DNA of 18,848 nt, taken from a virus. Positions 10,014 to 10,618 of this stretch are shown here, in pieces. Below the pieces are notes generated by a model. It made no database searches. It saw nothing but the letters and a program-made list of their open reading frames with translations, and was not told where the DNA came from. Positions within the stretch are counted from its first letter, which is position 1. Every line of letters starts with the position of its first letter. The translations under genes were made by a program, and so were the position numbers. The stretch lies in IMG/VR virus record IMGVR_UViG_3300009775_000008, positions 1 to 18,848 of that record; one strand, 5' to 3'.

Positions 10014-10048
10014 AGCATGGACATCATGTCTATGATAATGTCCATGCT
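10014..10048. promoter_or_regulatory. perfect 11-bp inverted repeat (agcatggacat N13 atgtccatgct) immediately upstream of the suppressor tRNA
   Basis: Arms at 10014-10024 and 10038-10048 are exact reverse complements. They contain the TGGACA/TGTCCA motif that recurs in the 10569-10618 array. It lies 6 nt upstream of the tRNA 5' end on the minus strand. Confidence 0.35.
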
Positions 10049-10201
10049 TGTTATTACCATCCTGCCTGTTCTCTCCGTATTTCATCCTCTATCTCCTGAC
10101 GCCTTTTTTTACGAAGTTCCTCTGGAGTTAGCTTTTTTTCTTCTTCAAGGATTTCTAACTCTTCCCCTGCAAGTTCTTGCTCGAGCTCCCTTTTTTTGAA
10201 A

Positions 10202-10534
10202 TCACTTTTGTAACTCATCTGATAATTTGTTATAGGTTTCGATAGTTTTACTTATCCGAGGTAGAAAGTTTTTGATAGAATTTTCTTCAGATGAATTTGG
10301 TTCAATTTGTTCTAAAGATTTTCCTCTCATTAAACCATAAGCAGCAAACATGATTCTTAATTTTTCTCTGTTGGCTCTGTGTTGCATGGCAGCTACCCAA
10401 GGTTCCATTGTTCTTTCCCCTTTGATATAAACTGTCTTTCTCTGGTTTCTTAAAAATTTCTGCTCTTCAGAAAGTTTTTTAATATCGCTTTTTAAAGCGT
10501 TAATTGCAATTTTATTGATAGTTAAAGTTTCCAT
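10202..10534 (-). CDS. hypothetical protein
   Basis: 110-aa ORF (charged, helical-looking). It is preceded by the TGTCCA repeat array. Confidence 0.45.
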   Translation of the reverse strand: METLTINKIAINALKSDIKKLSEEQKFLRNQRKTVYIKGERTMEPWVAAMQHRANREKLRIMFAAYGLMRGKSLEQIEPNSSEENSIKNFLPRISKTIETYNKLSDELQK

Positions 10535-10568
10535 GATTATTATTTTATTTGAGTTAAAAAATTAAAAT

Positions 10569-10618
10569 TGTCCTGATTGATGTCCAAATGTCCATATTTT
10601 ATGTCCATTTAGTGTCCA
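10569..10618. promoter_or_regulatory. array of five direct repeats TGTCC(A/T) at 8-13-nt spacing (iteron- or operator-like)
   Basis: TGTCCT at 10569, then TGTCCA at 10581, 10589, 10602 and 10613. The array lies 35-100 nt upstream of the start of gene 10202..10534 and downstream of the PTH2-like gene. Confidence 0.35.

What the first reader, a model, noticed from the sequence alone, without database searches (positions are those of the whole stretch)
10014..10618. Shared TGTCCA/TGGACA motif: perfect palindrome upstream of the suppressor tRNA and a five-copy direct-repeat array upstream of the next gene
A perfect 11-bp inverted repeat, agcatggacat-N13-atgtccatgct, lies 6 nt upstream of the tRNA(CUA) 5' end.

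About 550 nt away, 5' of gene 10202..10534 and just downstream of the TAG-containing PTH2-like gene, TGTCC(A/T) occurs five times in direct orientation at 8-13-nt spacing. The positions are 10569, 10581, 10589, 10602 and 10613.

A common hexamer in a palindromic operator and in a helically phased array is what one expects for one DNA-binding regulator. It could be a phage repressor or activator, or a replication-initiator iteron set. It may co-control the suppressor tRNA and neighbouring genes. The array could also be a replication origin-like element.
Basis: seen in the sequence. Interest (0 to 1): 0.55.

Follow-up and report, generated by a model that had tools for sequence, protein, structure and literature searches.

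The report
Three-arm repeat hairpins flanking suppressor-tRNA operon
The shared TGGACA motif is real and belongs to a widespread, apparently undescribed family of three-part repeat hairpins that sit just after genes; here its two copies lie inside one small operon that ends in the phage's amber-suppressor tRNA and starts with a tiny TAG-containing leader gene that looks built to sense stop-codon read-through.

Summary
The palindrome lies at 10014-10048 and five same-sense (A/T)GGACA copies at 10568-10620. Elsewhere in the window TGGACA is at background.

The operator/iteron reading is not favoured. Both clusters are versions of one stereotyped unit: arm, N3-4, arm, N3, inverted arm. The direct period is 12 nt and the core is GGACA..TGTCC.

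- This unit recurs in many unrelated phage contigs.
- In tandem it follows the stop codon of a Bacteroidota deaminase-HATPase_c_4-wHTH gene family in 10 of 10 members.
- The outer arm bases co-vary. Units lie mostly within 15 nt after a co-directional stop codon.
- No Rfam family or paper matches.

In this phage both copies sit in one minus-strand unit. Its order is: a promoter-like box; a 9-codon leader ORF (MEH-TAG-IIRPP-stop); a long-range helix pairing the post-stop sequence with the 110-aa ORF start; the 110-aa and 54-aa ORFs; a hairpin with a short U-run; then tRNA(CUA).

The leader and helix are kept in about 11 lineages with unrelated helix sequences.

Best reading: RNA-level control, namely a UAG-read-through-sensing translational attenuator plus a leaky terminator. 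The factor reading the GGACA arms is unknown.

The parts
10683..10690 (-). Promoter-like box TATATTTA. It is one mismatch from the Bacteroidota -7 consensus TAnnTTTG. It lies directly after the PTH2-like stop and about 20 nt before the leader ATG.
   Evidence: Coordinates. The block TTTGTATATTTAAAYT is invariant in all three lineages aligned, and L053 has a perfect TATATTTG. TATATTTG also precedes other transcription units in the window. Promoter function is inferred, not shown.
10635..10664 (-). Leader mini-ORF ATG GAA CAC TAG ATT ATT AGA CCG CCT TAA, which reads M E H [TAG] I I R P P stop.
   Evidence: It is the only mini-ORF in the window with an in-frame TAG and a Pro-Pro-stop ending. Equivalent leaders lie upstream of every 110-aa homologue except L180: MKKHN-x-VRPP, MRH-x-ISLPP, MKH-x-INRPP, MKDT-x-VQKPP, MKY-x-VLWPP, MKNR-x-NHTRPP, MI-x-IKKPP and MRL-x-IYSRGSP. 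There are no substitutions among seven close relatives.
10616..10634 (-). 5' strand of the long-range 'anti-start' helix, CCAUGAUUAUUUUAUUUGG. It begins at the first base after the leader UAA.
   Evidence: It pairs with 10551-10531 in the minimum-free-energy fold (dG -26.6, z -3.7). The inverted repeat was found independently. Duplex dG is -18.3 against a shuffle mean of -4.5, with 0 of 1000 shuffles as good.
10568..10620 (-). It forms the apical region enclosed by the anti-start helix and has no inverted partner.
   Evidence: The homologous position holds a complete three-arm unit in L007 (AATCAGGACA), L053 (AGGATA) and L150 (TTATGGGACA), and nothing in L006. Five of nine variable columns among close relatives fall here.
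10531..10551 (-). 3' strand of the anti-start helix, CAAAUAAAAUAAUAAUCAUGG. It contains the A-rich initiation region and the AUG (10534-10532) of the 110-aa ORF.
10202..10534 (-). 110-aa ORF, a conserved three-helix protein of unknown function. In every lineage held it is linked to the leader and to a tRNA(CUA).
   Evidence: 64 homologues at 36-97% identity (alignment). The AF2 model has pLDDT 88.8 and is all-alpha. No PDB fold match has E below 3. There is no Pfam, PHROG or PADLOC hit. Contexts are shown.
10054..10218 (-). 54-aa highly charged ORF that overlaps the end of the 110-aa ORF. Its stop codon lies 5 nt before the hairpin.
   Evidence: It is absent in L006 and longer in L007.
10014..10048 (-). 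Arm1 is AGCATGGACAT (10048-10038), degenerate arm2 is ATCATAGACAT (10036-10026) and the inverted arm is ATGTCCATGCT (10024-10014). As RNA it folds into a 14-bp hairpin with a 7-nt loop, followed by AUUUU.
   Evidence: terminator-like; dG about -20 for the hairpin; z -3.2. The same architecture is found in L006, L007 and L053.
9936..10008 (-). tRNA with anticodon CUA, an amber suppressor.
   Evidence: ARAGORN and Rfam tRNA at 68.9 bits. None of the 28 genes in the window ends in TAG.
11148..11165 (-). Third conserved GACA-N3-TGTC site, TATGACATTTTGTCGATA. It lies between the terminator of the vault-protein-like gene and the PTH2-like start codon. It may be related, but its role is unknown.
   Evidence: It is conserved in L001-L008 including L006 and L007. 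About 0.3 GACANNNTGTC sites are expected per 18.8 kb (my own estimate).
10704..11078 (-). PTH2-like peptidyl-tRNA hydrolase gene with an in-frame TAG at codon 8. This is the upstream neighbour and is listed for context.
   Evidence: Pfam PF01981 with E 4e-8.

Best explanation
Both motif clusters are cis-acting elements of one minus-strand transcription unit and most likely act in the RNA.

Layout of the unit
- A promoter-like TATATTTA box.
- A 9-codon leader ORF, MEH-UAG-IIRPP-stop.
- The 110-aa and 54-aa ORFs.
- A hairpin.
- tRNA(CUA).

Step 1, shown by sequence and folding
- The 19 nt directly after the leader stop pair with the initiation region and AUG of the 110-aa ORF.
- The five GGACA copies are the apical part enclosed by this helix.

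Step 2, inferred
- With little suppressor tRNA, host RF1 ends leader translation at UAG, 15 nt before the stop. The helix stays shut and the 110-aa ORF is not translated.
- When UAG is read through, the ribosome reaches Pro-Pro-stop. In E. coli this is a known slow-termination context.
- The ribosome then sits on the first helix bases, which are the ones paired to the AUG, and opens the start site.

Step 3, inferred
- The 'palindrome' is a 14-bp hairpin with a short U-run. It starts 5 nt after the last ORF's stop and ends 5 nt before the tRNA.
- It would act as a leaky terminator and/or as a 3' protective hairpin left after RNase P cleavage.
- Ribosomes finishing the upstream ORFs would weaken it. 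This would couple tRNA(CUA) output to suppression as a positive feedback.

Step 4, shown as a pattern; function unknown
- Both elements are members of a widespread three-arm unit: arm, N3-4, arm, N3, inverted arm.
- The conserved GGACA/UGUCC apex and the exactly conserved AGCATGGACA arms imply a sequence-specific trans factor that has not been identified.
For: Leader
- A mini-ORF with an in-frame TAG 4-7 codons before a Pro(-Pro)-stop lies upstream of the 110-aa homologue in 11 of 12 lineages (43-100% aa identity). The nucleotide sequences differ.
- It shows no change among seven close relatives, whereas the array varies.

Helix
- The post-stop/anti-start helix appears in the MFE of each lineage. 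The strands are unrelated, for example CCAUAAU..GUGAUU with AAUCAC.AAUUAUGG in L055 and CGUUUCCAUUU with AAAUGGAAACA in L182.
- Each duplex beats 1000 shuffles at p <= 0.018.

Pre-tRNA hairpin
- A strong hairpin lies 3-9 nt before tRNA(CUA) in 8 of 10 lineages.
- These include canonical terminators in L180 and L179, with unrelated sequences.
- The window hairpin was called terminator-like.

Unit family
- The same architecture occurs in unrelated phages.
- An unbiased scan shows the outer arms, which were not part of the search pattern, to be complementary or identical. At outer positions 1-4 all 2000 shuffles are exceeded, except arm1=arm2 at position 4.
- 39 of 51 units are intergenic, and 16 lie within 15 nt after a co-directional stop.
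- 15 units read in the sense orientation against 3 in the opposite orientation.

Coding context
- No gene in the window ends in TAG.
Against: - There are no transcript, ribosome or structure-probing data. The promoter, the transcription start site and co-transcription of the ORFs with the tRNA are all inferred.
- G.U pairs are not enriched over A.C among arm mismatches, so the covariation does not by itself say RNA rather than DNA or ssDNA.
- Only 11 of 51 units have a T-rich tail. The window's U-run is only four U.
- In L006 the arm2/inverted-arm hairpin starts 12 nt after the stop, so a terminating ribosome would not melt it.
- The role of the first, duplicated arm is unexplained. So are the strict 12-nt period and the five inverted-arm-less copies in the window.
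- The exact conservation of AGCATGGACA across lineages exceeds what a purely structural hairpin needs.
- L006, L055, L056 and L182 run the leader and helix without any GGACA unit. The array is therefore dispensable for the attenuator itself.
Confidence: 0.5

Rival explanations
1. The GGACA sites are DNA operators. A sequence-specific DNA-binding protein, encoded elsewhere in the phage or by the host, would bind GACA-N3-TGTC palindromes and extra half-sites at a 12-nt period. The winged-helix tail of the Bacteroidota deaminase-HATPase_c_4 proteins is a candidate. Binding would repress or block transcription of the 110-aa ORF, the tRNA(CUA) and the PTH2-like gene. This would resemble controller-protein C-boxes or mycobacteriophage stoperators.
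For: - The spacing is strict (12-nt direct period, 3-nt gap) and the core is conserved.
- Arrays of half-sites occur without an inverted partner, in the window and as GGACAAT copies in L039.
- A third conserved GACA-N3-TGTC site lies upstream of the PTH2-like gene.
- In bacteria the units always follow a gene ending in a wHTH domain, in three different domain architectures.
- A PsyrA-like antitoxin gene often follows, which recalls TA operators.
- There is no G.U excess in arm mismatches.
- The AGCATGGACA arms are conserved in sequence, not only in pairing.
Against: - The outer arms differ between units of a single array yet stay self-complementary (L043, L046). Even the core changes in a compensatory way. 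A single protein does not explain this.
- Units are polar and abut stop codons.
- No wHTH homologue is present in any phage locus held.
- The nearby small ORFs give no sign of a DNA-binding fold.
- The array and the pre-tRNA arms evolve independently.
Confidence: 0.2
2. The units are RNA ligands of the host deaminase-HATPase_c_4-wHTH defence proteins, and the phage copies are decoys. The tandem units after the host gene would form a type-III-toxin-antitoxin-like inhibitory RNA. Phages would carry copies in abundant transcripts as antitoxin mimics that keep the deaminase silent.
For: - Tandem units follow this gene family in 10 of 10 members examined, four of them chosen without regard to the motif.
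- The loci lie in defence-island settings (MmeI-like RM, PglZ, OLD nuclease).
- Phage arms match bacterial arms exactly. AGCATGGACA..TGTCCATGCT occurs in L050, L043 and L046 and in the window, L006 and L053.
- There are precedents. AvcD, a dCMP deaminase, is inhibited by the AvcI RNA (PMC10511110). Pseudo-ToxI in phage PhiTE is a second case (my recollection of Blower et al. 2012).
Against: - The units in an array are not near-identical repeats, unlike ToxI.
- The deaminase architecture differs from AvcD.
- A protein antitoxin candidate (PsyrA-like) often follows the array.
- Units also occur in GC-rich phages that probably do not infect Bacteroidota.
- There is no expression or binding evidence.
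Confidence: 0.12
3. The units are mobile or recombinogenic regulatory cassettes, comparable to PeSLs of T4-type phages or to REP/BIME elements. They would spread among phages and Bacteroidota genomes and mark boundaries of gene insertions. Sequence similarity would then reflect common descent, not a common reader.
For: - Gene content varies right next to units. The 54-aa ORF and the thioredoxin gene are present in the window but absent in L006 and L007. An extra 89-aa ORF follows the unit in L012 but not in L059.
- Units occur in unrelated genomes.
- Some lie in coding regions (L019).
Against: - Units occur once or a few times per 10-kb locus, not dispersed.
- Position is stably conserved after the gp32-like SSB gene across proteins only about 40-57% identical (the figure for the L012/L028 pair). 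It is likewise conserved before tRNA(CUA).
- No transposase or RAYT-like gene is associated.
Confidence: 0.08
4. The array is a replication-origin iteron set or an initiator-binding site.
For: - There are five direct repeats in AT-rich DNA.
- Large AT-rich non-coding regions with many repeat families hold units in some huge phages (L014, L039).
Against: - The repeats are 8-9 nt at irregular spacings of 8-13 nt.
- They lie inside a 169-nt leader between a conserved mini-ORF and a start codon.
- They are lost or replaced in close relatives.
- No initiator, helicase or primase gene is adjacent.
Confidence: 0.03

Closest known systems
Leader-peptide translational attenuation (ermC, cat/cmlA leaders; tnaC for stalling at a stop codon)
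   Same: - A short upstream ORF is present.
- The ribosome position on that ORF decides whether a downstream start codon, held in a helix, is exposed.
- The 5' strand of the helix lies in the footprint of a ribosome paused at the end of the leader.
- The leader ends in a C-terminal proline context that is known to slow termination.
   Different: - The sensed event would be read-through of an in-frame UAG, that is, the level of the phage's own amber-suppressor tRNA relative to RF1. It is not an antibiotic, tryptophan or charged-tRNA supply.
- The controlled operon ends in that suppressor tRNA.
- I found no description of such a leader.
Intrinsic (Rho-independent) terminators and 3' protective hairpins
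   Same: - A stable hairpin lies directly after a stop codon on the sense strand.
- In the window and in the SSB-UvsX phages it is followed by a T-run.
- In sister lineages the same position before tRNA(CUA) holds canonical terminators.
   Different: - The apex sequence GGACA-N3-UGUCC is conserved.
- An extra direct copy of the 5' arm lies exactly 12 nt upstream.
- Only about one fifth of units have a T-rich tail.
- The window's ordinary terminators are GC-rich stems with T6-8.
Controller-protein C-boxes (GACT-N3-AGTC pairs) and mycobacteriophage L5 stoperators (named from my own knowledge)
   Same: - Short half-sites are separated by 3 bp and occur in tandem sets.
- Stoperators are asymmetric, polar with respect to transcription, and lie near start and stop codons.
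   Different: - The arms of GGACA units co-vary in a compensatory way and differ between units of one array.
- No cognate regulator was found in the phage loci.
Type III toxin-antitoxin RNA repeats (ToxI) and the AvcI RNA of the AvcD deaminase system
   Same: - Tandem structured RNA-like repeats lie adjacent to a toxin-like gene, here a deaminase fusion, in defence islands.
- Phages are known to mimic such RNAs.
   Different: - The repeats lie downstream of the gene and are not near-identical.
- The period is 57-63 nt.
- The protein architecture is different.
- There is no functional evidence.
PeSL cassettes of T4-type phages; REP/BIME elements
   Same: - These are short conserved stem-loop modules in intergenic DNA at gene boundaries.
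- They are sometimes found next to variable ORFs.
   Different: - The three-arm geometry.
- The low copy number per genome.
- The fixed positions kept across deep divergence.

Membership tests
Leader-peptide translational attenuator | A short ORF upstream of the regulated gene, conserved as an ORF across relatives. | tested here: met
   A mini-ORF is present in 11 of 12 lineages with different nucleotide sequences. It shows no substitution among seven close relatives.
Leader-peptide translational attenuator | A regulatory codon and/or an arrest site within the leader. | tested here: met
   An in-frame TAG lies 4-7 codons before the stop. The ending is Pro-Pro-stop in 9 lineages and Ser-Pro-stop in L179. 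That these features cause termination or pausing in vivo is inferred.
Leader-peptide translational attenuator | An RNA helix that sequesters the downstream initiation region and whose 5' strand lies within reach of the paused ribosome. | tested here: met
   The MFE helix pairs 10634-10616 with 10551-10531 (z -3.7). The same arrangement, with unrelated sequences, is found in the other lineages, each at p <= 0.018 against shuffles.
Leader-peptide translational attenuator | Expression of the downstream gene changes with ribosome position on the leader. | not testable with these tools
   This needs reporter assays, toeprinting or Ribo-seq.
Intrinsic terminator | A stable stem-loop directly followed by a U-tract at the 3' end of a transcription unit. 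| tested here: inconclusive
   The window has a 14-bp stem (5 G-C pairs), a 7-nt loop and the tail AUUUUGG. Sister lineages have canonical terminators at the same place. Only 11 of 51 units of the family have T-rich tails.
DNA operator or iteron set of a sequence-specific DNA-binding protein | A cognate DNA-binding protein encoded next to the sites. | tested here: not met
   The 110-aa ORF is a helical bundle with no HTH. The small ORFs have no Pfam or PHROG hit. No wHTH homologue is present in the phage loci. In bacteria a wHTH gene is always adjacent.
DNA operator or iteron set of a sequence-specific DNA-binding protein | Sites conserved in sequence, with no need for compensatory change. | tested here: not met
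   The outer arms and even the core change in a compensatory way. However, the AGCATGGACA arms before tRNA(CUA) are conserved in sequence.
DNA operator or iteron set of a sequence-specific DNA-binding protein | Fixed spacing compatible with protein oligomers. | tested here: met
   Units show a 12-nt direct period and a 3-nt gap. The window array itself is irregular, at 11, 13, 8 and 12 nt.
Replication-origin iterons | Several roughly 17-22-bp repeats next to an AT-rich unwinding element and an initiator gene. | tested here: not met
   The repeats are 8-9 nt and lie inside a 169-nt leader. No replication gene is adjacent.
CRISPR array | Near-identical repeats separated by unique spacers, with cas genes or a leader. 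| tested here: not met
   The bacterial arrays have CRISPR-like geometry (unit about 35 nt, period 57-63 nt). However, the units differ, the spacers are similar purine-rich linkers, and no cas genes are present.
Any Rfam 15 RNA family | A covariance-model match at the gathering score. | tested here: not met
   Only tRNAs were found in the window. Nothing was found in eight bacterial loci. Only sub-threshold, miRNA-like hairpin noise appeared at relaxed E-values.
Type III TA antitoxin RNA | Tandem near-identical repeats of 34-45 nt that are transcribed and bind an adjacent toxin. | tested here: inconclusive
   Tandem units lie adjacent to a deaminase fusion in 10 of 10 cases. The units are not identical, and transcription and binding could not be tested.

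The most novel reading that the evidence does not exclude
The three-arm GGACA units are the RNA (or single-stranded nucleic-acid) ligand of a large, uncharacterised Bacteroidota defence family of deaminase-HATPase_c_4-winged-helix proteins. In those genomes the tandem units after the gene would act as a type-III-TA-like inhibitory RNA. Phages, including this one, would carry exact copies of the arms (AGCATGGACA..UGUCCAUGCU) in abundant transcripts as antitoxin decoys. In this phage the decoys are built into the circuit that switches the infected cell to amber suppression.
Probability: 0.12. Interest if true: 0.9.

Novelty: new variant of a known kind. Interest (0 to 1): 0.74.

Why it matters
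How stop-codon-recoded phages time the change from the host's standard code to their own is an open question. It was raised in the 2021 survey read, which contains no occurrence of 'leader', 'attenuat' or 'uORF'.

This locus offers a concrete and cheaply testable device. A leader ORF can be completed only if UAG is read through. It ends in a Pro-Pro-stop pause site placed exactly on the helix that hides the next gene's start codon. The operon it heads ends in the suppressor tRNA behind a terminator-like hairpin. If confirmed, this would be a natural sensor, and possibly a positive-feedback switch, for genetic-code state.

Separately, the three-arm GGACA unit appears to be an uncatalogued and widespread element. 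It links many phages with a family of at least 1956 Bacteroidota defence-island proteins. This gives a handle on the function of that family.

Tried and rejected
- Megablast of 5 kb, a tblastn search and a short blastn search against cultured phages (INPHARED) found no relatives of the locus, the SSB neighbour or the unit.
- Rfam searches at gathering and relaxed thresholds returned nothing but tRNAs.
- Literature searches for TGGACA/TGTCCA and GGACA/TGTCC with phage terms found nothing relevant. The search for a recoding-phage leader peptide also found no description.
- The 110-aa ORF as an HTH regulator is rejected on its structure.
- I considered that the bacterial hits encode a His-rich peptide, since CAT GGA CAT reads as HGH in frame after the stop. 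The frames differ between loci and the arrays are full of stop codons, so I rejected this.
- Stop-codon read-through or ribosome-hopping signals are not supported, for the same reason.
- A sigma-70 promoter was considered because TGGACA resembles the -35 hexamer TTGACA. The scan gave no more sites than shuffles, and covariation argues against it. An ECF-like GGACA-N15-TGTC promoter and an N4-type hairpin promoter were also considered and cannot be excluded for some units.
- CsrA-type GGA sites were rejected because the GGA lies in the stem.
- DnaA boxes were rejected because the CACA end is lacking.
- Integron attC was rejected because the arm orientations differ.
- The G.U versus A.C mismatch test, meant to separate RNA from DNA, was uninformative.
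- TAnnTTTG as a general intergenic signal is not enriched (4 of 18 on the minus strand are intergenic). Only the specific TATATTTG/A form recurs before transcription units.
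Full report
**Observation**

All genes in the window read on the minus strand, and GC content is 35.5%.

The palindrome
- AGCATGGACAT-N13-ATGTCCATGCT lies at 10014-10048, 5 nt upstream of tRNA(CUA) at 9936-10008.
- Its 'spacer' holds a third, degenerate copy. On the minus strand the element reads AGCATGGACAT-t-ATCATAGACAT-g-ATGTCCATGCT.
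- It is therefore two direct repeats with a 12-nt period, followed by one inverted copy.

The array
- Five same-sense (A/T)(T/A)GGACA copies lie at 10620-10568.
- They sit in the 169-nt gap between the PTH2-like gene and ORF 10202-10534.

Chance
- TGGACA occurs 12 times against 6.4 expected. Six copies fall in these two clusters, and the other six are at background in coding sequence.

**Conservation in relatives**

Eight IMG/VR loci encode the 110-aa ORF.

The pre-tRNA element keeps the same architecture in four lineages:
- window: TGGACA-N6-TAGACA-N3-TGTCCA
- L006: AGCATGGACAaaAGCATGGACAtctTGTCCATGCT
- L007: AGCATAGACAggAGCATGGACAaagTGTCCATGCT
- L053: AGCATGGACAgaAGCATGGACActtCGTCCATGCT

The flanks differ between these lineages, the 54-aa ORF is present or absent, and even the tRNA acceptor stem differs.

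The upstream array behaves differently:
- It is kept, with point changes in core positions, in the roughly 95%-identical relatives.
- It is replaced by complete three-arm units with other arms in L007 (AATCAGGACA), L053 (AGGATA) and L150 (TTATGGGACA).
- It is absent in L006.
- Among the window and six close relatives, five of nine variable columns in 221 nt fall in the 53-nt array.

**A widespread three-arm unit**

First scan of IMG/VR
- An exact scan for CATGGACA-N3-TGTCCATG returned 32 loci.
- In many low-GC loci, often from huge contigs, a further direct copy lies exactly 12 nt upstream. These loci share no proteins with the window.

Scan of species-representative genomes
- A scan for the three-arm pattern gave 12 hits where I estimate about 0.3 by chance. 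Nine are from Bacteroidota or neighbouring phyla.
- In those genomes the units form tandem clusters of 2-7, with a period of 57-70 nt.
- The clusters begin at the stop codon of a ~500-aa protein made of a dCMP-deaminase domain, HATPase_c_4 and a C-terminal winged helix. Two other architectures with the same winged helix also precede clusters.
- Four further members of this family of at least 1956 proteins were chosen without regard to the motif. All carry 2-3 units after their stop codon.

Variation between units
- Units in one array can have different arms while keeping the architecture, for example TAAGGACA/TGTCCTTA, ATCGGGACA/TGTCCCGAT and CATAGACA/TGTCTATG.
- L177 uses CGACA/TGTCG, so only GACA-N3-TGTC is invariant.

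Unbiased scan
- An IMG/VR scan for GGACA-N7-GGACA-N3-TGTCC fixes only the cores. It gave 101 distinct sites.
- The unconstrained outer four bases of the three arms are complementary or identical far above chance. For example, arm1 pairs with the inverted arm in 60, 43, 62 and 52 of 101 sites, against shuffle means of about 27 and maxima of 40-46.

Features of the 51 clear units
- 39 are intergenic.
- 16 start within 15 nt after a co-directional stop codon.
- 11 have a T-rich tail.
- Between co-directional genes, 15 read in the gene sense and 3 against it.
- The next start codon usually follows 15-40 nt after the unit.
- One phage family keeps the unit 10-19 nt after a gp32-like SSB gene and before a UvsX-like gene. 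There it has a T-run, so it behaves like a terminator.

Prior description
- No Rfam family matches, and no paper was found.

**What surrounds the array**

The leader
- A conserved block follows the PTH2-like stop. It contains TATATTTA (10690-10683), one mismatch from the Bacteroidota -7 box. TATATTTG also precedes other units in the window.
- About 20 nt further lies a mini-ORF at 10664-10635: ATG GAA CAC TAG ATT ATT AGA CCG CCT TAA.
- Every 110-aa homologue held, except L180, has an equivalent leader. Each has an in-frame TAG 4-7 codons before a Pro-Pro-stop (Ser-Pro-stop in L179), encoded by different nucleotides.

The helix
- Folding the leader RNA pairs the 19 nt immediately after the leader stop (10634-10616) with 10551-10531, which includes the AUG of the 110-aa ORF.
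- The GGACA array is the enclosed apical region (dG -26.6, z -3.7). The inverted repeat was also found independently.
- The same post-stop/anti-start helix appears in each other lineage with unrelated sequences. Each is significant against shuffles.
- Lineages without any GGACA unit (L006, L055, L056/L181, L182) keep the leader and the helix. The array is therefore not essential to this device.

**What surrounds the palindrome**

- As RNA it is a 14-bp hairpin with a 7-nt loop, followed by AUUUU and then the tRNA.
- It starts 5 nt after the stop of the 54-aa ORF.
- In 8 of 10 lineages a strong hairpin lies 3-9 nt before tRNA(CUA). In L180 and L179 it is a canonical terminator of unrelated sequence.
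- The structural role is therefore conserved. The GGACA sequence is a lineage-specific version of it.

**Mechanism proposed**

Shown:
- The order of the elements, the leader, the helix, the hairpin and their conservation.
- No gene among 28 in the window ends in TAG, and the PTH2-like gene needs TAG read-through at codon 8.

Inferred:
- Early in infection, host RF1 terminates leader translation at UAG. The helix stays closed, and the untranslated RNA ends mostly at the hairpin.
- Once some suppressor tRNA exists, ribosomes reach Pro-Pro-stop. From my knowledge of E. coli work on C-terminal Pro-Pro, this is a slow-termination context.
- The ribosome then covers the first helix bases, CCAUGAU, which are the ones paired to the AUG.
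- The 110-aa and 54-aa ORFs are translated. Ribosomes finishing 5 nt before the hairpin weaken it, and more tRNA(CUA) is made.
- The sign of this feedback, and whether the hairpin terminates transcription or only protects a processed 3' end, are open.

**What remains unexplained**

- The duplicated first arm.
- The exact 12-nt period.
- The five inverted-arm-less copies.
- The sequence-exact AGCATGGACA arms, which are identical to arms in the bacterial arrays of L050, L043 and L046.

These features point to a sequence-specific reader. G.U pairs are not enriched among arm mismatches, so DNA or ssDNA recognition is not excluded.

The nearby 110-aa protein is a three-helix bundle with no fold match.

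The bacterial partner protein resembles Argonaute-associated modules in its middle part, and is often followed by a PsyrA-like gene. A deaminase toxin controlled by an RNA antitoxin is known (AvcID, PMC10511110). This motivates the decoy reading given as the novel case.

**Verdict**

The motif sharing is real and biologically meaningful. The 'operator plus iteron array for one local DNA-binding regulator, or an origin' reading is the less likely one. The more likely one is a set of RNA-level elements in a suppressor-tRNA operon with a UAG-sensing leader, built in part from a widespread and so far undescribed three-arm repeat unit.

Noticed in passing
window 11214-13760 (-), 6876-8576 (-), 10704-11078 (-): The phage encodes an 848-aa major-vault-protein-like protein (MVP shoulder plus Vault_3 domains). 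It also encodes a 566-aa TROVE/Ro60-like protein and a PTH2 peptidyl-tRNA hydrolase, set among six or more tRNA genes. The same module is present in L053, with TonB_C and cold-shock genes. Vault particles and Ro60 are both RNA-binding assemblies.
   Followed up: partly
window about 9050-9241 (-): A candidate ~190-nt non-coding RNA lies in this gap. A TATATTTG box at 9241-9234 is flanked by CTATAGAAC repeats, and a GC-rich terminator lies near 9075-9050. It is 0.5 kb from the Ro60-like gene and is conserved in L053. It could be a Y-RNA-like partner. There is no Rfam match.
   Followed up: partly
window 14702-15601 (-): This is a 900-nt GC-rich stretch without ORFs that looks highly structured. 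It follows a TATATTTG box and lies next to a NUMOD3/homing-endonuclease-like ORF (14072-14701) and tRNA-Leu(CAA). There is no Rfam match even at E <= 1.
   Followed up: partly
window 16011-16080 and 16180-16249 (-): Rfam gives two weak tRNA-like matches here (32.7 and 32.4 bits). ARAGORN does not call either of them.
   Followed up: no
window 11148-11165 (-): A conserved palindrome TATGACATTTTGTCGATA (GACA-N3-TGTC) lies between the terminator of the vault-protein-like gene and the PTH2-like start. It is kept in all relatives.
   Followed up: partly
window 1229-315, 4496-3861, 11078-10704 (-): Three genes may carry an in-frame TAG very near their 5' end (codons 11, 22 and 8). No gene of 28 ends in TAG. 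This could be a general gating of these genes by suppression.
   Followed up: no
L041, L043, L044, L046, L047, L049, L052, L175-L178: A family of at least 1956 Bacteroidota/FCB proteins (dCMP-deaminase plus HATPase_c_4 plus winged helix) is always followed by 2-7 tandem three-arm units. A PsyrA/DprA-like small ORF often comes next. The loci lie next to MmeI-like RM, PglZ, integrase and OLD-nuclease genes. This looks like an uncharacterised defence module.
   Followed up: partly
L012, L059, L063-L065, L071, L081, L113, L136, L140, L143, L144: One phage family keeps a three-arm or four-arm unit with a T-run 10-19 nt after a gp32-like SSB gene and before UvsX-like and FEN-like genes.
   Followed up: partly
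L038 7092-12967: A 48% GC phage contig has six AGCGGGACA-N3-TGTCCCGCT hairpins and one CATGGACA hairpin. Where the flanks were read, the hairpin lies about 10-15 nt upstream of a Shine-Dalgarno sequence.
   Followed up: no
L039 900-1500, L024 7500-8500, L020 9950-10700: Non-coding regions of huge-phage contigs around the unit hold many single GGACAAT copies and a second repeated word, GTACAAT (CGTACAAT).
   Followed up: no
L033 446-644: A three-arm unit fills the 35-nt spacer between two tRNA-Leu genes of a phage tRNA array. Here it is in the orientation opposite to the tRNAs.
   Followed up: no
L055 1420-1620 and L182 about 780-945: In lineages without GGACA units, the apical region of the leader carries other repeats. 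These are ACAAAATGTAAC-type repeats, and ATTTGCGAATCGCAAATTGCGAAT, which can form alternative hairpins.
   Followed up: no
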